Source: Deltaproteobacteria bacterium
Lineage (GTDB): Bacteria > JAGRBM01 > JAHCIT01
DNA: 64,000 nucleotides
Direction of reading: 5' to 3'
Assembly: GCA_026129095.1 (NCBI GenBank)
Contig: JAHCIT010000012.1
Coordinates: 1-64,000, forward strand
Part shown: piece by piece, positions 35,557 to 41,520 of the stretch
How positions within the stretch are numbered: the first letter of the stretch is position 1
Layout: every line of letters starts with the position of its first letter
Program-made: the position numbers and the translations under genes
The notes under the pieces: model-generated
Databases searched by the model: none
Told to the model about the DNA's origin: nothing
Seen by the model: the letters and a program-made list of their open reading frames with translations, nothing else

Positions 35557-36963
35557 TTAGGGGCGTTTTTCAAGGACTTTCCGCTGCAGTTCGCGGACGT
35601 ATCCGACGACGTTGGCGATCTCCTCGTCGGTGAAATCGGCTTCTTCCCTGAATGAGTTCATGTTCGTTCCCGAGCGCCCGTCACGGATGGTGATGGCGAG
35701 GAACGAGTCGGGCATGTCGGCGAGCGCCCGGTGCGTCAGCCGGGTTCCCTTGGGCCCGCCTTCACCGTTGGCACCGTGGCACATCTTGCAGCTTTCGTTA
35801 TATAGCTCCTTGCCGGATTCCACATCGGCCTGGGCCTTGTAGGCCCAAGGCTCCGGATCCTCGCTGGCGGCGTTGGAGTAGATGTAGCTGACCAGCGCAT
35901 CGATCTCCTTGCGGCTGAGACCGCTCGATTCGGTGCTCCAGCTTTCCATCGGCGTTCCGGGCCGGCCTTCGATGATGGTCCGCCGGATGAATTCCGGGCC
36001 GGCGGCCTTGAGCATCTGCGGATGGCGTGCAGCCGGTATCATCCAGTCGAGGATCTCATCCTTGCGGCTCTTCAGGCCAGCATCGTGGCAGCCGGAACAG
36101 TTGCGCTTGTACAGCAGTTCGCCGTTCGGATTGTCCCTGTCCATGGAATCCCGGGAATGGACCAGTGCGCTCGGTATTCTCATATCCCGCAGCGACATGA
36201 TGTAGACCGACAGTTTCGTGGCGTCCTCGGGTGTCAGTGCATATTTCCGCATGGCTGAGCCGGGCACGACTTCCTGGGGATTCAGGAGGTGCTGCACGTG
36301 CCAGTTCTCGACGGTATGCGGGCCAGTAAGGTGTGCCATGGGAAAATGAGCGATGGGTTTTGAGCCGATGCCGTCCAGCACCGGCCCGCTGGATCCGCCC
36401 ACGCCGCCGGTCTTGTGGCAGGAGTTGCATCCCATCTTGATGAAAAGGTCGGCACCGCCCGAAAGCAGCGGAGCGCCGTTGGCTTCGAGCCACTCCGAGG
36501 CATGGCAGGTGCGGCAGGACGCCTGGATGAAATCCTTCGAGTAGATCGGTTCATCCCAGTAGACATGCAGGTGCGGATTGTTCGCGTGCGCCTCGGCCGA
36601 GTTTGTCGCCAGTCCCTGGCCGTGGTGACAAACGCTGCACCCGTAGGTCTGGGGCTGGTGAGAGGCGAGCAGGTTGCCGGGGTGTGCGGTGAATGGCTGG
36701 GGCGCGTTCACCATGTCGGTGTTCATCAGCCCCGTGTGGCAGGTGGAGCAGCGGTCGATCCGGCCCAGCTCGGTAAGAAAATGCTGCCTGAGGCCGGGCT
36801 CGAATGGCGTTTTACCGGCGGTCATCCGTGCATACTCGCGCTGGTGGCTCCGCCACTCCCGGAAATAGTTGTCCTCAAGGGCCGACATTCCGGCGAACAC
36901 CAGCGTGATCGCGGAAGCGACGAGAAGCACTGACGAGTACAGTTTTTTGTGCATGTTGGTCAT
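35557..36963 (-). CDS. Membrane-anchored hexaheme cytochrome c
   Basis: N-terminal TM helix and six CxxCH motifs (CSTCH, CSVCH, CRTCH, CNSCH, CSGCH, CKMCH). Confidence 0.9.
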   Translation of the reverse strand: MTNMHKKLYSSVLLVASAITLVFAGMSALEDNYFREWRSHQREYARMTAGKTPFEPGLRQHFLTELGRIDRCSTCHTGLMNTDMVNAPQPFTAHPGNLLASHQPQTYGCSVCHHGQGLATNSAEAHANNPHLHVYWDEPIYSKDFIQASCRTCHASEWLEANGAPLLSGGADLFIKMGCNSCHKTGGVGGSSGPVLDGIGSKPIAHFPMAHLTGPHTVENWHVQHLLNPQEVVPGSAMRKYALTPEDATKLSVYIMSLRDMRIPSALVHSRDSMDRDNPNGELLYKRNCSGCHDAGLKSRKDEILDWMIPAARHPQMLKAAGPEFIRRTIIEGRPGTPMESWSTESSGLSRKEIDALVSYIYSNAASEDPEPWAYKAQADVESGKELYNESCKMCHGANGEGGPKGTRLTHRALADMPDSFLAITIRDGRSGTNMNSFREEADFTDEEIANVVGYVRELQRKVLEKRP

Positions 36964-36972
36964 TATCCTCCG

Positions 36973-38574
36973 TCAGTGTATGGGCCAGTCTTTCGGCGAC
37001 CAGAAGAACTGCCAGTCCGGACCCCGGAAGTAGGTGCCGACAATCGTCAGGACGACGAAACCGCACAGGAAACAGGTATACAGGGCGACGGCACCCTTTC
37101 GCGTGCTGCGGGTTTTCTGGAGTACCGCCAGGGAATAGCCCGCGTACAGCGCGGTGAGTATCGTCCCCGGATTGATGAGGGTGATGACGATCTGCGGAAT
37201 ATCGGGAACCCACTGGCGTATCCAGCCGAATTTCACGGTAAACGCGACCAGCGCAATGACCGTGGCAAGCCCGTAGGCAAGCGAGGCCAGGAACACCTTC
37301 TTTTCCCGGCCGTTGTCGAGCCATGTGCCGGATACACCCTTCTCGCGGTCGAGAAACGGGACCAGGGCAAGACCCACGACGACGAGCATCGGAATCATCA
37401 CACCGCCGGCGAACGCGGAATAACTGACCAGTTCCTGCAGCCCGAGGAAATACCATGGGGCCTTGGCGGGGTTTTCCGGGATTGCCGGGTTGGCCAGTTC
37501 CTTCAGGGGGGCGTCGAAGAAAAAGCTGAGTACGCAGGTGATGGCAATCAGTACCATCGCCGCCGCCAGTTCTGCCCGGAATGCATGGGGGAATGTGGCC
37601 ACGGTTCCCTCGGGTGCCCGGTCTACAGCGGGAGTTTTCCCGCGGACAACCGCCATGAGACCGTAGGTCTTCGATAGCGGGAATGCGGCCTTTCCGGTCA
37701 CGCCGGGATCGCCGGGCTTGGAGGCATCCGGCGGACGGGTCAGTCCGCCATCCTTGCGGATCCGCCAGAAATGGAGTCCTACCAGGGCGAATGCCGCCAC
37801 CGGCAGGATGACGACGTGCAGCAGGTAGAACCGGGTCAGTGCGCCCTGCCCGACGATGTCACCGCCGAGCAGGAGTTCCTTCTGAAGGCCGCCAATGTCG
37901 AACCGGTGCGTGATACCGAGGGCATCGGTGATCTCCCGGGGGCTGGCCGCGATGTTCGCGCCGATGGTGACGGCCCAGAAGGCAAGCTGGTCCCACGGCA
38001 GGAGGTATCCGGTAAAGGAGAGGCCGAGGGTAATCACGAACAGCCCCATGCCGATCACCCAGTTCGCCTCGCGGGGCGGCTTGTAGCTGTTGGTGTAAAA
38101 TACCCGCGTCATGTGCAGAAGCACCGTAAAGACCATCAGGTGCGCCGCCCAGCGGTGAATGTTGCGGACATATTTGCCCGCGCTCGACACGAAACTGAGA
38201 TCCTTCACCGTGTAGTACGCTTCGGGAACTCCCGGCTGGTAGTAGATCATCAGGAACACGCCGGTAATGCACAGGATCAGGAATGCCGTCAGTGCCATGA
38301 TGCCGAGCCCAAGGGTGAACACCGGCCGAAGGCTCCACAGGTGGGTGCGTGTCGAGTGAATATGGAGAAAAAAGTTCTGGAACACGGCCCGCGAGCGTTC
38401 CCGCTCCGAACTGAGCGGCCAGCCGTGCCGCACGACGGCATTCTTTGCCGAGCTGCCGAGCTGCTTCAGGTTGTTCGTGAACGCCCGGATGCCGGATACC
38501 CGGGTTTCGGCGCTTCCGGCGGGATCGTTCACCGTATCCCGCCGGACGGGCGGCTCCTGTCCATGTTCAGCCAT
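36973..38574 (-). CDS. Cytochrome b6-like subunit fused to subunit IV plus extra TM helices
   Basis: Heme b His pairs (IHRWAA...LLH; LLH...GLH), GYLLPWDQ and Qo-site variant PAKAPWYF. Confidence 0.9.
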   Translation of the reverse strand: MAEHGQEPPVRRDTVNDPAGSAETRVSGIRAFTNNLKQLGSSAKNAVVRHGWPLSSERERSRAVFQNFFLHIHSTRTHLWSLRPVFTLGLGIMALTAFLILCITGVFLMIYYQPGVPEAYYTVKDLSFVSSAGKYVRNIHRWAAHLMVFTVLLHMTRVFYTNSYKPPREANWVIGMGLFVITLGLSFTGYLLPWDQLAFWAVTIGANIAASPREITDALGITHRFDIGGLQKELLLGGDIVGQGALTRFYLLHVVILPVAAFALVGLHFWRIRKDGGLTRPPDASKPGDPGVTGKAAFPLSKTYGLMAVVRGKTPAVDRAPEGTVATFPHAFRAELAAAMVLIAITCVLSFFFDAPLKELANPAIPENPAKAPWYFLGLQELVSYSAFAGGVMIPMLVVVGLALVPFLDREKGVSGTWLDNGREKKVFLASLAYGLATVIALVAFTVKFGWIRQWVPDIPQIVITLINPGTILTALYAGYSLAVLQKTRSTRKGAVALYTCFLCGFVVLTIVGTYFRGPDWQFFWSPKDWPIH

Positions 38575-40960: not shown

Positions 40961-41437
40961 TCATACCAGAGTCTTGGTCCCAGCCTTTACGGGCTTCTTC
41001 AGGTCGACCACCAGCGCCCCGTCTTCGGCCCGGGAGACATCCAGCCACTCCAGGGCCTTCGGTGCGGGGCCGCTCTCCACATTGCCGGCCGGTGAGAACA
41101 TGGAGCCATGACACGGGCACCTGAATCCCGTTTCGGCTTTCTGCACGATGCAGCCGAGATGCGTGCAGATGAGCGACATCACATGCAGTCCCTTTTCATC
41201 ACGCAGGACCATGACGTTATGCCGTTCGAGAATGCGGGAAGTTCCTTCGGGGAACTCGTTTGGAAACCCTAGCCGGACCTTCGAATCGGGTTCGTAATGC
41301 ACGTTGGGTTTGGGCATCCGGAGCAGCCCCAGCAGGCCCGCGAACAGGGCGGCGGCGGCGGTGCCGAAAGCGGCGGTGTCGAGGAATTCGCGTCTGGTCA
41401 CGCTGGCGCCGGCCGTATCGGCTGGTGAATGGGCCAT
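40961..41437 (-). CDS. Rieske [2Fe-2S] subunit
   Basis: Tat motif TRREFL, a TM helix, and CTHLGC and CPCHGS boxes. Confidence 0.93.
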   Translation of the reverse strand: MAHSPADTAGASVTRREFLDTAAFGTAAAALFAGLLGLLRMPKPNVHYEPDSKVRLGFPNEFPEGTSRILERHNVMVLRDEKGLHVMSLICTHLGCIVQKAETGFRCPCHGSMFSPAGNVESGPAPKALEWLDVSRAEDGALVVDLKKPVKAGTKTLV

Positions 41438-41506
41438 TGCTATCGCCTCCTTGCTGGCAGTCGCGCCCTTCTGCTCCACGCTATTCGGTGGAATGCCGGG
41501 GACCGA

Positions 41507-41520
41507 ATGATGGATGTCAT
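41507..41520. promoter_or_regulatory. Crp/Fnr-like palindrome ATGAT-GGAT-GTCAT upstream of the Rieske/cytb operon
   Basis: Intergenic. TAGCGT (41478-41483, minus strand) lies 23 nt downstream. Confidence 0.75.

What the first reader, a model, noticed from the sequence alone, without database searches (positions are those of the whole stretch)
35557..41520. Anammox-style Rieske/cytochrome b complex with a built-in NAD(P)-binding Fe-S flavoprotein, next to a nirS/nor denitrification island
Seen: one tightly packed minus-strand operon runs Rieske, monoheme cytochrome c, FAD/NAD(P) Fe-S flavoprotein (overlapping the next gene by 8 nt), fused cytochrome b6+subunit IV, hexaheme cytochrome c. The same palindrome found before nirS and norC precedes it. 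Established: ordinary bc1/b6f operons have no NAD(P) oxidoreductase. A Rieske + NAD(P) oxidoreductase + cytochrome b6 + multiheme c layout is known from anammox Planctomycetes, where coupling of quinol oxidation to NAD(P)+ or ferredoxin reduction has been proposed. Inference: here such a complex could feed NirS and cNOR while exchanging electrons with the cytoplasmic NAD pool, for example by bifurcation or reverse electron flow. That would be a poorly described denitrifying respiratory module outside anammox.
Basis: partly seen in the sequence, partly recalled or inferred. Interest (0 to 1): 0.88.

Follow-up and report, generated by a model that had tools for sequence, protein, structure and literature searches.

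The report
Flavoprotein-bearing Rieske/cytochrome b respiratory complex
A relative of respiratory complex III that carries its own NAD-binding iron-sulfur flavoprotein sits inside the nitrite and nitric-oxide reduction genes of an uncultured soil and sludge bacterium; this design, discussed in print only for anammox bacteria, is in fact widespread and has never been tested biochemically.

Summary
The minus strand encodes a lipoprotein cytochrome c, a Tat-type Rieske protein, a monoheme c, a 632-aa NfnB/GltD-like Fe-S flavoprotein, a fused cytochrome b6/subunit IV and a hexaheme c. A palindrome (ATGAY-N4-RTCAT) precedes the Rieske gene and also norC and nirS. The flavoprotein looks like a true subunit. 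In a sample of 395 unrelated genomes, 19 carry it. In 22 of 22 loci with enough flank it lies beside Rieske and cytochrome b genes. The two protein trees agree. A complex model scores 0.74 against 0.00 for controls.

The layout is the anammox type, and the Rieske protein's best solved relatives are the two Kuenenia proteins. But the module is not specific to denitrification: 0 of the 19 carrier genomes have nirS, while 5 have nosZ. The tie to nirS and nor belongs to this six-species phylum.

Differences from the anammox complexes: no heme cN cysteine, and an NADH-type rather than NADPH-type dinucleotide motif. The direction of electron flow (quinol to NAD+, or NADH into the complex) is untested. 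Earlier agents of this scan found the same module on other DNA. I call it a new variant of a known kind, of moderate to high interest.

The parts
41535..42005 (-). Upstream monoheme cytochrome c, probable lipoprotein (LAAAGC lipobox, one CNGCH). Conserved directly upstream of the Rieske gene in all five relatives.
   Evidence: ORF; Pfam PF00034; tblastn in relatives
41507..41520 (.). Palindrome ATGATGGATGTCAT (ATGAY-N4-RTCAT), a CRP/FNR-type box 70-83 nt upstream of the Rieske start codon.
   Evidence: The same box lies upstream of the Rieske gene in G001, G002 and G005 (exact) and in G004 (1 mismatch)
40961..41437 (-). Rieske [2Fe-2S] protein, 158 aa. Tat signal TRREFL, one N-terminal membrane helix, CTHLGC and CPCHGSMF motifs.
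   Evidence: Pfam; best solved relatives 9rk3 and 9rk4 (Kuenenia); motifs
40491..40901 (-). Membrane-anchored monoheme cytochrome c, 136 aa, one CSGCH.
   Evidence: Pfam; start codon and GGAGG read; conserved in relatives
38567..40465 (-). Cytoplasmic Fe-S flavoprotein, 632 aa. N-terminal Fer4_20 cluster domain (Cys 23, 27, 62, 66, 70, 74), FAD and NAD(H) Rossmann domains, C-terminal ferredoxin-like domain (Cys 536, 539, 550, 553, 556, 560, 603, 606, 609, 613).
   Evidence: Pfam; PDB relatives NfnABC 9bov/9bp5 and NfnI 5jca_L; invariant columns; motif table
36973..38574 (-). Fused cytochrome b6 + subunit IV, 533 aa. Four canonical heme histidines (140, 154, 253, 268), invariant His71 before helix A, Gly89 at the heme cN cysteine position, conserved cytoplasmic linker KTYGLM (302-307), APWY in place of PEWY.
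   Evidence: Pfam; b6 alignment; alignment A1; NCBIfam ExtP/ExtQ below cut-off
35557..36963 (-). Membrane-anchored hexaheme cytochrome c, 468 aa, six CxxCH.
34080..35456 (-). Outer-membrane porin (Alginate_exp family), 100 nt downstream of the hexaheme gene. Follows the operon in G001 and G002 as well. Membership of the unit is uncertain.
   Evidence: Pfam; tblastn; RNA-library contigs
44346..45071 (+). CRP/FNR-family regulator without an N-terminal cysteine cluster (VETSIR recognition helix). Candidate reader of the palindrome; a 1-mismatch box lies at 44326-44339.
   Evidence: Pfam; translation; NCBIfam; box
46268..46281 (.). Exact copy of the palindrome upstream of the norC-like gene.
46375..48644 (+). 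norC-like diheme cytochrome c (46375-47217) and norB (47271-48644), proposed electron acceptors.
   Evidence: Pfam
54114..54127 (.). One-mismatch copy of the palindrome (ATGACCAGTCTCAT) upstream of nirS.
54209..55885 (+). nirS (cytochrome cd1 nitrite reductase), proposed electron acceptor.
   Evidence: Pfam; PF02239 genome search

Best explanation
The operon encodes one membrane complex: a Rieske/cytochrome b6-type quinol oxidase. On the periplasmic side it has a hexaheme cytochrome c plus two small monoheme cytochromes instead of cytochrome f/c1. On the cytoplasmic side it carries a permanently bound NfnB/GltD-like Fe-S flavoprotein.

Composition (shown by computation):
- The flavoprotein's C-terminal ferredoxin domain and its first residues dock onto two cytoplasmic elements of cytochrome b. 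These are the N-terminal extension and the linker that fuses b6 to subunit IV.
- The terminal Fe-S cluster therefore lies next to the n-side of the b-heme pair.

Mechanism (inferred):
- Quinol is oxidised at the Qo site.
- One electron goes through the Rieske cluster and the c hemes to NirS and cNOR, which share the operon's CRP/FNR-type box.
- The other electron crosses the membrane on the two b hemes. Instead of reducing quinone at a Qi site, it leaves through four or five Fe-S clusters to FAD, which reduces NAD+ (more likely than NADP+).
- The very positive nitrite/NO and NO/N2O couples pay for the uphill branch, as proposed for anammox.
- The NADH can be re-oxidised by the organism's complex I. 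That would raise the proton yield of steps whose reductases pump nothing.

The module is a general one, used in other phyla with other high-potential acceptors such as NosZ and cbb3-type oxidase.
For: Composition: Pfam domains, 8-nt overlap and short gaps.

Subunit status of the flavoprotein:
- The same gene order occurs in 6 of 6 genomes of the phylum.
- 19 of 395 unrelated genomes have a full-length homologue, at 23 places. In 22 of the 22 places with flank it lies beside Rieske and cytochrome b genes, and 19 of 22 also have a homologous multiheme c.
- The flavoprotein and cytochrome b trees recover the same major clades with high support.
- Complex model of cytochrome b 1-360 with the whole flavoprotein: ipSAE 0.74, 0.74 and 0.73, best of 3 controls 0.00. 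That mark was reached by 116 of 157 solved complexes and 2 of 215 mismatched pairs. The runs share at least 81% of contacts and the partner's pLDDT is 82.
- The modelled interface uses family-conserved elements: cytochrome b 55-62, 74-76 and 286-321 (including invariant K302 and Y304), and flavoprotein 5-12, 494-498 and 543-617, which holds the C-terminal cluster cysteines.

Cofactor sites: four canonical heme histidines plus His71 are invariant in 24 of 24 sequences. Sixteen cysteines are invariant in 26 of 26 flavoproteins.

n-side remodelling: Gly stands at the b6 Cys35 position in the window's protein, and 0 of 24 have Cys in that column. The flavoprotein-less paralogue in the same genome keeps the Cys.

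High-potential Rieske signature: CPCHGS-x-F/Y with Ser in 26 of 26. The window's Ser/Phe pair is the one the paper reports for Kustd1480, whose potential exceeds +300 mV (paper).

NAD rather than NADP: the YRR of NfnI aligns with CLE here, and the Glu is kept in 25 of 26.

Link to NirS and cNOR: shared palindrome, conserved upstream of the Rieske gene in 4 of 4 relatives; nir genes on the operon's contig in G001, G002, G004 and G005.

High-potential partners elsewhere: nosZ directly downstream in G341 and G031 and about 1.2 kb downstream in G362; cbb3-type genes inside the G082 cluster. nosZ is found in 5 of 19 carriers against 29 of 376 others (Fisher p 0.017, related genomes not independent).

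Complex I with NuoF is present in this genome.

Presence in RNA libraries: contigs at 99% identity or more from metatranscriptome run X16 include a 739-nt piece across the flavoprotein start, the monoheme c gene and the Rieske end. X18 has a piece across the flavoprotein/cytochrome b junction.
Against: No biochemical evidence exists, here or for any member; the anammox proposal itself is untested (paper).

The direction of flow cannot be read from sequence.

The quinone type is unknown. The futalosine marker PF02621 was not found and I did not test the classical men pathway, so the energetics are unchecked.

His71, a candidate ligand for the extra heme b predicted in the anammox models, also occurs in the flavoprotein-less paralogue, so it is not diagnostic.

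The heme cN cysteine that the anammox models use is missing here.

A heterotroph with complex I has no obvious need for reverse electron flow.

The RNA-library contigs cannot show strand or level, DNA carry-over is not excluded, and no silent control stretch was laid.

The complex model used my own alignments and one cytochrome b monomer cut at residue 360, without hemes.

I could not align the Kuenenia flavoprotein or cytochrome b with these proteins, because no tool gave me those sequences.
Confidence: 0.55

Rival explanations
1. Same complex, opposite flow. The flavoprotein is an electron entry. NADH (or NADPH) reduces FAD, and electrons pass through the Fe-S clusters to the n-side heme(s). 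There they reduce quinone at a Qi-like site, feeding the Q cycle. The complex would then work as a proton-translocating NADH:cytochrome c (hence NADH:nitrite/NO) oxidoreductase, comparable to the proposed FNR/ferredoxin entry into cytochrome b6f in cyclic electron flow.
For: The flow is thermodynamically downhill and needs no unusually low b-heme potentials. The NADH-type motif fits a catabolic donor. The window carries many beta-oxidation genes that make NADH. The composition evidence is the same as for the best explanation.
Against: The organism already has complex I with NuoF. The heme cN cysteine that marks the b6-type Qn site is lost precisely in the flavoprotein-linked cytochrome b and kept in the paralogue. 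That points to loss, not reinforcement, of n-side quinone reduction. The invariant high-potential Rieske signature and the recurrent pairing with very oxidising acceptors have no role in this scheme.
Confidence: 0.25
2. The complex is mainly a link to an outer-membrane or extracellular redox partner. The hexaheme and the small cytochromes would pass electrons to or from the neighbouring porin, as in the porin-cytochrome clusters found with this module in other phyla. Its position in the nir/nor island would be secondary.
For: A porin gene follows the operon here and in G001 and G002. Geobacter's ext cluster likewise joins a porin-like protein to Rieske/cytochrome b and multiheme proteins (PMC5877670, passages read). 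Earlier scan notes report Cyc2-type porins next to the module in other phyla (not checked by me).
Against: The window's porin has no heme motif (sequence). It is separated from the hexaheme gene by 100 nt. In G005 a porin homologue lies several kb upstream of the operon on the other strand, not after the hexaheme gene. The CRP/FNR-type box shared with nirS and norC and the conserved nir linkage point to N-oxide respiration.
Confidence: 0.1
3. The flavoprotein is a separate soluble enzyme (a GltD/NfnB-type oxidoreductase for another substrate) that is merely co-transcribed with an ordinary Rieske/cytochrome b complex.
For: Its catalytic core is that of soluble enzymes (NfnI, GltD, DPD). No curated NCBIfam model reaches its cut-off; the best is NF009410 at 370 bits against 516.
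Against: Synteny in 22 of 22 loci across distant lineages. Congruent trees. A conserved 8-nt overlap with the cytochrome b gene. Complex model 0.74 against 0.00 for controls, through elements conserved only in this family. No NfnA/GltB-type partner gene among the module's neighbours.
Confidence: 0.05

Closest known systems
Kuenenia stuttgartiensis Rieske/cytochrome b complexes Kuste4569-4574 and Kustd1480-1485 (anammox; Kartal et al. proposal as cited, and AlphaFold3 models and Rieske structures in Hauser et al., 10.1101/2025.06.25.661457 = PMC12954380)
   Different: No cysteine at the heme cN position. Cytochrome b and subunit IV are fused. Two extra monoheme cytochromes c are present. There is no HAO-like octaheme gene. 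The organism is a nirS/cNOR denitrifier without hydrazine metabolism. The dinucleotide motif is of the NADH type. Direct alignment with Kuste4570/4571 and Kustd1481/1483 was not possible with these tools.
Cytochrome b6f (and bc1) complexes
   Same: The cytochrome b N-terminal half aligns with cytochrome b6 (1vf5_A, E 2.2e-36) with all four heme histidines. The Rieske protein is of the b6f type. The protein has the b6 + subunit IV architecture.
   Different: No cytochrome f or c1. No heme cN cysteine. APWY instead of PEWY. A roughly 70-residue N-terminal extension and a conserved b6-subunit IV linker that dock a flavoprotein. Extra C-terminal membrane segments.
NfnB (large subunit of NfnI, 5jca_L), GltD, and the GltD-like domain of Bfu-type NfnABC (9bov/9bp5) and StnABC-like 8oh5_C
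   Same: An N-terminal two-cluster domain followed by FAD and NAD(P) Rossmann domains (E 8.6e-52 to 6.7e-72).
   Different: It has an added C-terminal ferredoxin-like domain with ten invariant cysteines. There is an insertion after the second GxGxxA. The YRR of the NADPH site is replaced by (C/S)LE. No NfnA or GltB partner is present; the partner is a membrane cytochrome b.
Geobacter sulfurreducens ExtO/ExtP/ExtQ (Rieske, cytochrome b and membrane protein of the extHIJKLMNOPQS cluster; PMC5877670, passages read)
   Same: ExtP and ExtQ are the nearest curated NCBIfam models for the two halves of the window's cytochrome b. The cluster is also multiheme-rich and has a porin-like gene nearby.
   Different: The scores fall below the curated cut-offs (232 against 290; 67.6 against 150). 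By the paper's gene list the Ext cluster has no flavoprotein.
Clade II ('atypical', Anaeromyxobacter-type) nos gene clusters. [quoted passage not shown]
   Same: One clade of the module (G341a, G031, G362 = Anaeromyxobacter diazotrophicus by the NCBI name of the identical protein) lies directly upstream of nosZ. It consists of the same four protein families.
   Different: The window's clade is a different one. nosZ was not found in this genome, and the partners here are nirS and cNOR. In the papers I could read, the nos-cluster gene is called only an iron-sulfur protein.

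Membership tests
Anammox-type NAD(P)-oxidoreductase-bearing Rieske/cytochrome b complex | Rieske protein, b6-like cytochrome b and subunit IV-like part encoded together | tested here: met
   Pfam; PDB; alignment
Anammox-type NAD(P)-oxidoreductase-bearing Rieske/cytochrome b complex | Hexa- or octaheme cytochrome c in place of cytochrome f/c1 | tested here: met
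   Six CxxCH motifs in the 468-aa product
Anammox-type NAD(P)-oxidoreductase-bearing Rieske/cytochrome b complex | Fe-S flavoprotein (FAD plus dinucleotide site plus several clusters) encoded in the cluster and placed on the n-side of cytochrome b | tested here: met
   Domains; synteny in 22 of 22 loci; complex model 0.74 against control 0.00, (a model, not a measurement)
Anammox-type NAD(P)-oxidoreductase-bearing Rieske/cytochrome b complex | Rieske protein related to Kuste4569/Kustd1480, with a high-potential signature | tested here: met
   9rk3 and 9rk4 are the best of 71 PDB matches. The PDB codes are confirmed in the paper. Ser/Phe pair.
Anammox-type NAD(P)-oxidoreductase-bearing Rieske/cytochrome b complex | Histidine in the N-terminal part of cytochrome b that ligates an extra inter-monomer heme b (His43 of Kuste4571, His62 of Kustd1481 in the AF3 models) | tested here: inconclusive
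   His71 is invariant in 24 of 24 sequences. It is also present in the flavoprotein-less paralogue. Equivalence to the Kuenenia residues could not be checked.
Anammox-type NAD(P)-oxidoreductase-bearing Rieske/cytochrome b complex | Heme cN (covalent cysteine before helix A), as included in the anammox models | tested here: not met
   Gly89 aligns with the residue before b6 Leu36 (that b6 Cys35 binds heme cN is recalled). 0 of 24 sequences have Cys in that column and 2 of 24 have Cys one column earlier.
Anammox-type NAD(P)-oxidoreductase-bearing Rieske/cytochrome b complex | Orthology of the flavoprotein and cytochrome b to Kuste4570/4571 or Kustd1483/1481 | not testable with these tools
   No tool returned the Kuenenia sequences. 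None of the 19 carrier genomes could be identified as an anammox bacterium; the HZS_alpha search was not specific.
Canonical cytochrome b6f / bc1 | Cytochrome f or c1 subunit; PEWY Qo motif; heme cN cysteine (b6f) | tested here: not met
   Hexaheme c instead. APWY motif and Gly89.
NfnB / GltD small-subunit family (flavoprotein) | N-terminal two-cluster domain plus FAD and NAD(P)H Rossmann domains | tested here: met
   PF14691 + PF07992; 5jca_L at 8.6e-52 and GltD chains
NfnB / GltD small-subunit family (flavoprotein) | Arg-Arg after the second Rossmann beta strand (NADPH 2'-phosphate site; this role is recalled) and a soluble NfnA/GltB partner | tested here: not met
   YRR of 5jca_L aligns with CLE. 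Glu is present in 25 of 26 members. No such partner gene lies next to the module.
Geobacter ExtP/ExtQ (NCBIfam NF040969, NF040970) | Score above the curated cut-off | tested here: not met
   232 against 290 bits and 67.6 against 150 bits

The most novel reading that the evidence does not exclude
Flavoprotein-bearing Rieske/cytochrome b complexes are a widespread, undescribed class of respiratory complex III, found in about one in twenty sampled bacterial genomes across many phyla. At the Qo site they split the two electrons of menaquinol between a very oxidising periplasmic acceptor chain (nitrite, NO, N2O, O2) and cytoplasmic NAD+. In organisms that have complex I, the NADH re-enters the chain. 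Non-pumping reductases such as NirS, cNOR and NosZ would then be coupled to roughly twice the proton translocation of an ordinary Q cycle. This would also mean that the anammox 'NAD(P)H-generating bc complex' is one branch of a general mechanism rather than an anammox speciality.
Probability: 0.25. Interest if true: 0.9.

Novelty: new variant of a known kind. Interest (0 to 1): 0.62.

Why it matters
The idea that a Rieske/cytochrome b complex can send its low-potential electron to NAD(P)+ instead of back to quinone has stood untested, because anammox bacteria are very hard to work with.

This window and its relatives show that the same four-part module, with a flavoprotein that co-evolves with cytochrome b and is confidently modelled onto it, occurs in ordinary denitrifiers and N2O reducers. 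One of them is a cultured Anaeromyxobacter. That makes the hypothesis testable by standard genetics and biochemistry.

If the hypothesis holds, it changes how energy yields of denitrification steps are calculated, including N2O reduction, which matters for greenhouse-gas budgets. It would also add a third functional class beside bc1 and b6f.

If it fails, the complex is still an unrecognised NADH-linked entry into, or exit from, the respiratory chain.

Tried and rejected
- **The search for related loci with the single flavoprotein.** I surveyed genomes with the genome search instead.
- **Finding an anammox genome among the carriers with PF18582 HZS_alpha.** G031 matched, but the family also rang in the Bacteroides control, and G031 has nosZ beside the module. 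I did not use it.
- **ESM Atlas look-up of cytochrome b.** It gave only generic cytochrome b clusters.
- **His71 as a marker of flavoprotein-linked cytochrome b.** Rejected, because the paralogue without a flavoprotein has the same LHxH motif.
- **Promoter and terminator scan.** One promoter-like site against 1.9 expected; not informative.
- **Quinone type.** PF02621 was not found and the men pathway was not searched, so this stays unresolved.
- **Papers describing the flavoprotein-bearing complex outside anammox.** None found. The Nitrospina paper (PMC3578206, passages read) reports a Kuenenia-like bc operon with an octaheme cytochrome, and the passages read do not mention a flavoprotein. The Caldithrix paper (PMC5317091, passages read) describes a plain Rieske/cytochrome b pair. 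PMC3511753, an id I recalled for the first clade II nos paper, is not held.
- **RNA-library contigs.** Parts of the operon are uncovered in X16, X18 and X19; these holes prove nothing.
- **Genome-wide nirS co-occurrence as support for a denitrification role.** It gave 0 of 19.

Full report
**What is there.** Between 35557 and 42005 the minus strand carries six closely spaced genes (ORFs; Pfam; starts read).
- 41535-42005: a probable lipoprotein monoheme cytochrome c.
- 40961-41437: a Rieske protein with a Tat motif (TRREFL) and the motifs CTHLGC and CPCHGSMF.
- 40491-40901: an anchored monoheme cytochrome c.
- 38567-40465: a 632-aa flavoprotein with Fer4_20, Pyr_redox_2 and two 4Fe-4S motifs.
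- 36973-38574: a 533-aa cytochrome b whose N-terminal half is b6-like. Its C-terminal half is subunit IV-like.
- 35557-36963: a 468-aa cytochrome c with six CxxCH motifs.

The flavoprotein and cytochrome b genes overlap by 8 nt. The other gaps inside the Rieske-to-hexaheme unit are 59, 25 and 9 nt. A porin gene of the Alginate_exp family follows 100 nt downstream (34080-35456).

The surrounding DNA is a denitrification island. It holds a CRP/FNR-family regulator, a norC-like gene, norB, norQ, norD, nirJ, nirF/N and nirS. Between these and the operon lie genes for ScdA-like, DUF2249 and hemerythrin proteins.

**The palindrome.** ATGAY-N4-RTCAT occurs exactly at 41507-41520, which is 70-83 nt before the Rieske ATG and after the stop of the upstream cytochrome c gene. 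It also occurs exactly at 46268-46281, before norC.

One-mismatch copies lie before nirS (54114), nirJ (51278), the regulator gene (44326) and other intergenic places. The window holds 13 matches against 4.94 expected, and 0 of 100 shuffles reached 13. The genome has 21 exact sites against 5 for the reversed control pattern, and three of the 21 lie in this window.

The box stands at the same place upstream of the Rieske gene in G001, G002 and G005 (exact) and in G004 (one mismatch). The regulator at 44346-45071 has no N-terminal cysteine cluster. Its recognition helix reads VETSIR, like that of FNR/DNR-type proteins (the comparison with FNR is recalled). Co-regulation with nirS and norC is therefore a reasonable inference, but it has not been measured.

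**The organism.** The genome (3.67 Mb, 23 contigs, 96.65% complete) belongs to a GTDB phylum with only six species genomes. NCBI labels a member of the sister family 'Bdellovibrionota bacterium'. All six genomes have the operon in the same order: cytochrome c, Rieske, monoheme c, flavoprotein, cytochrome b, hexaheme. All six have nirS, and it lies on the operon's contig in G001, G002 and G005; in G004 the operon's contig carries a nirF/N-like d1-family gene and nirS itself lies on another contig. DNA of this lineage occurs in soil, activated sludge and biofilm metagenomes.

**Is the flavoprotein part of the complex?** Four independent lines say yes.

First, synteny. In a sample of 401 genomes spread over the bacterial domain, 25 have a full-length homologue at E of 1e-90 or better. 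That is the six of the phylum plus 19 of 395 others, at 23 places. One place is an 1,858-base contig with no flank. In the other 22, Rieske and cytochrome b genes lie beside the flavoprotein gene, and 19 of the 22 also have a homologue of the multiheme protein with 4 to 10 CxxCH motifs. The usual order is flavoprotein, Rieske, cytochrome b, multiheme.

Second, phylogeny. The flavoprotein and cytochrome b trees recover the same major clades with high support.

Third, a complex model. Cytochrome b 1-360 with the whole flavoprotein scored ipSAE 0.74, 0.74 and 0.73, against 0.00 for the best of three controls. That mark was reached by 116 of 157 solved complexes and 2 of 215 mismatched pairs. The runs agree in at least 81% of contacts and the partner's pLDDT is 82. 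No like complex has been solved, so the pass should not come from memory. It is still a model, made with my own alignments, one truncated monomer and no hemes.

Fourth, the modelled interface uses exactly the elements that define this family. On cytochrome b these are the N-terminal extension (55-62, 74-76) and the linker joining b6 to subunit IV (286-321, with invariant K302 and Y304 in KTYGLM). On the flavoprotein they are the first residues and the C-terminal ferredoxin-like domain (543-617), whose cysteines are invariant.

**Cofactor anatomy.** Cytochrome b keeps the four canonical heme histidines (140, 154, 253, 268). It also has a fifth invariant histidine, His71, in an NFFLH motif before helix A (24 of 24 sequences).

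The anammox AlphaFold3 models place an extra heme b between the two monomers, on a histidine in this region. However, the flavoprotein-less paralogue in this genome has the same motif, so His71 is suggestive only.

At the position of the b6 cysteine that binds heme cN, the window's protein has Gly and none of the 24 has Cys; two have a Cys one column earlier. The paralogue keeps the Cys. The PEWY motif reads APWY.

The flavoprotein has six invariant cysteines in the N-terminal cluster domain and ten in the C-terminal part, intact GxGxxG/A motifs and a family-specific insertion. Its nearest solved relatives are the GltD-like module of NfnABC (9bov/9bp5, 6.7e-72), 8oh5_C, NfnA and the large subunit of NfnI (5jca_L, 8.6e-52).

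Where NfnI has YRR after the second Rossmann strand, this protein has CLE, and the Glu is kept in 25 of 26 family members. By the general Rossmann-fold rule (established knowledge, recalled), that favours NAD(H) over NADP(H).

All 26 module-linked Rieske proteins have CPCHGS-x-F/Y. The window's Ser/Phe pair is the one reported for Kustd1480, whose potential exceeds +300 mV (paper).

**How it most likely works.** Composition and topology are shown as far as computation can show them. The flow of electrons is inferred.

The reading that fits most observations is the one proposed for anammox. Quinol oxidation at Qo sends one electron through Rieske and the c hemes to a very oxidising acceptor. 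The other electron crosses on the b hemes and leaves through the Fe-S chain to FAD and NAD+.

Three observations favour this over the reverse flow (NADH entering to reduce quinone at the n-side):
- The heme cN cysteine is lost only in the flavoprotein-linked cytochrome b.
- The high-potential Rieske signature is invariant.
- The module pairs repeatedly with very positive acceptors.

Those acceptors are nirS and cNOR here. Elsewhere nosZ lies directly downstream in G341 and G031 and about 1.2 kb downstream in G362, and cbb3-type oxidase genes sit inside the G082 cluster. At genome level nosZ is found in 5 of 19 carriers against 29 of 376 non-carriers (p 0.017; related genomes are not independent).

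Because this genome has complex I with NuoF, NADH made this way could re-enter the chain. That would give non-pumping N-oxide reductases a higher proton yield. This last step is my own inference.

The module is not tied to nirS-type denitrification. None of the 19 unrelated carriers has a cytochrome d1 gene, and none of the 10 nirS genomes in the sample has the module.

Its neighbours vary: an Rrf2-family regulator in 5 loci, nosZ, cbb3-type genes, a molybdoenzyme, or PF13447 multiheme plus NIR_SIR proteins. Carriers named through identical NCBI proteins include Candidatus Hinthialibacter, Abyssubacteria, Schekmanbacteria and the cultured Anaeromyxobacter diazotrophicus. Close homologues are labelled Eisenbacteria, Latescibacterota and Omnitrophota.

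The window's genome also has a second Rieske/b6/subunit IV complex with a 1,027-aa octaheme cytochrome and no flavoprotein. Kuenenia likewise has several such complexes.

**Expression.** Contigs from four RNA libraries of four different studies lie on the operon. In metatranscriptome X16, seven pieces at 99% identity or more include one of 739 nt (40305-41043) that spans the flavoprotein start, the monoheme c gene and the Rieske 3' end. X18 has a 254-nt piece across the flavoprotein/cytochrome b junction. X19 covers the porin, hexaheme and monoheme c genes. X7 holds a 95-99% relative across the whole stretch. Contigs show neither strand nor level, DNA carry-over is not excluded, and I could not lay a silent control. 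This is weak support for expression.

**Literature.** Hauser et al. (preprint and journal version; outline, introduction, methods passages, modelling section, discussion passages and data statement read) treat the NAD(P)-oxidoreductase-bearing complexes as a peculiarity of Kuenenia. A term search of the journal version found no discussion of other organisms.

Nine full-text searches found no paper describing the flavoprotein-bearing complex outside anammox. [quoted passage not shown] That is probably this module, seen without recognising the flavoprotein. Subscription papers are not covered by these searches, and I did not open any supplements.

**Earlier notes of this scan.** At least eight earlier notes describe the same module on other DNA: Omnitrophota, Acidobacteria, Schekmanbacteria, Actinobacteria and a nosZ-linked case. 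They reach similar readings. I treat them as leads. The nosZ link and the wide distribution I checked myself.

**Verdict.** This is a real, conserved operon for a flavoprotein-bearing Rieske/cytochrome b complex of the anammox kind. In this lineage it is wired by position and a shared regulatory box to nirS and cNOR. It is a new variant of a known but untested kind. It differs in heme cN, in the fusion of cytochrome b with subunit IV, in the extra cytochromes c and in the likely NAD specificity. Its main value is that it, and especially its cultured relatives, make the old bifurcation-to-NAD hypothesis testable.

Noticed in passing
L062 (G000:C19:134000-147000), locus coordinates 2213-7984, minus strand: A second Rieske/cytochrome b complex in the same genome: Rieske (232 aa), split cytochrome b6 (280 aa) and subunit IV (321 aa), and a 1,027-aa cytochrome c with eight CxxCH motifs. 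There is no flavoprotein. Its b6 keeps the cysteine at the heme cN position (FTWCMGG). All six genomes of the phylum have this second cytochrome b.
   Followed up: partly
window 34080-35456 (-): An Alginate_exp-family outer-membrane porin gene lies 100 nt after the hexaheme gene. A porin also follows the operon in G001 and G002, and RNA-library contigs cover it. It has no heme motif and no NCBIfam match. Its substrate and its link to the complex are unknown.
   Followed up: partly
window 21528, 25428, 27595, 44326, 51278, 55969, 59102 (start positions of 14-nt sites): Further copies of the ATGAY-N4-RTCAT box (exact at 27595, the rest with one mismatch). Several lie close upstream of ORF starts, among them the regulator gene, nirJ, a YwiC-like gene and a B12-binding-domain gene, which suggests a sizeable regulon. 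Eighteen more exact sites lie elsewhere in the genome.
   Followed up: partly
window 42024-44227 (-) and 33535-33969 (-): Small genes typical of NO-stress or denitrification accessory sets flank the operon: ScdA_N/RIC-like, a 128-aa COX1-like membrane fragment, FmdE-like, pyridoxamine-phosphate-oxidase-like, DUF2249 x2 fused to TusA, and a hemerythrin-domain protein.
   Followed up: no
whole genome G000; relatives G004, G005: nosZ (PF18764) was not found in G000 or in G001-G003, but is present in G004 and G005 of the sister family. The window's family may therefore stop denitrification at N2O. G000 is 96.65% complete.
   Followed up: partly
window 887-16777 (+): A block of anaerobic acyl-CoA metabolism genes: aldolase-SDR fusion, a 1,427-aa BcrAD/BadFG-type activase with DUF2229, thiolase, AMP-ligase, two acyl-CoA dehydrogenases, a ferredoxin-nitroreductase fusion and a hydrolase. 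It may be a degradation pathway feeding the quinone and NADH pools.
   Followed up: no
L036, L037, L038, L043, L049 (loci of G169, G055, G245, G208, G031): An Rrf2-family regulator gene lies directly next to the flavoprotein gene in 5 of 22 unrelated loci. This hints at NO-, Fe-S- or redox-dependent control of the module in other phyla.
   Followed up: no
G055 (three copies: L037, L041, L055); G341 and G082 (two copies each): Some genomes carry two or three paralogous flavoprotein-Rieske-cytochrome b modules from different clades of the tree. Kuenenia likewise has two.
   Followed up: partly
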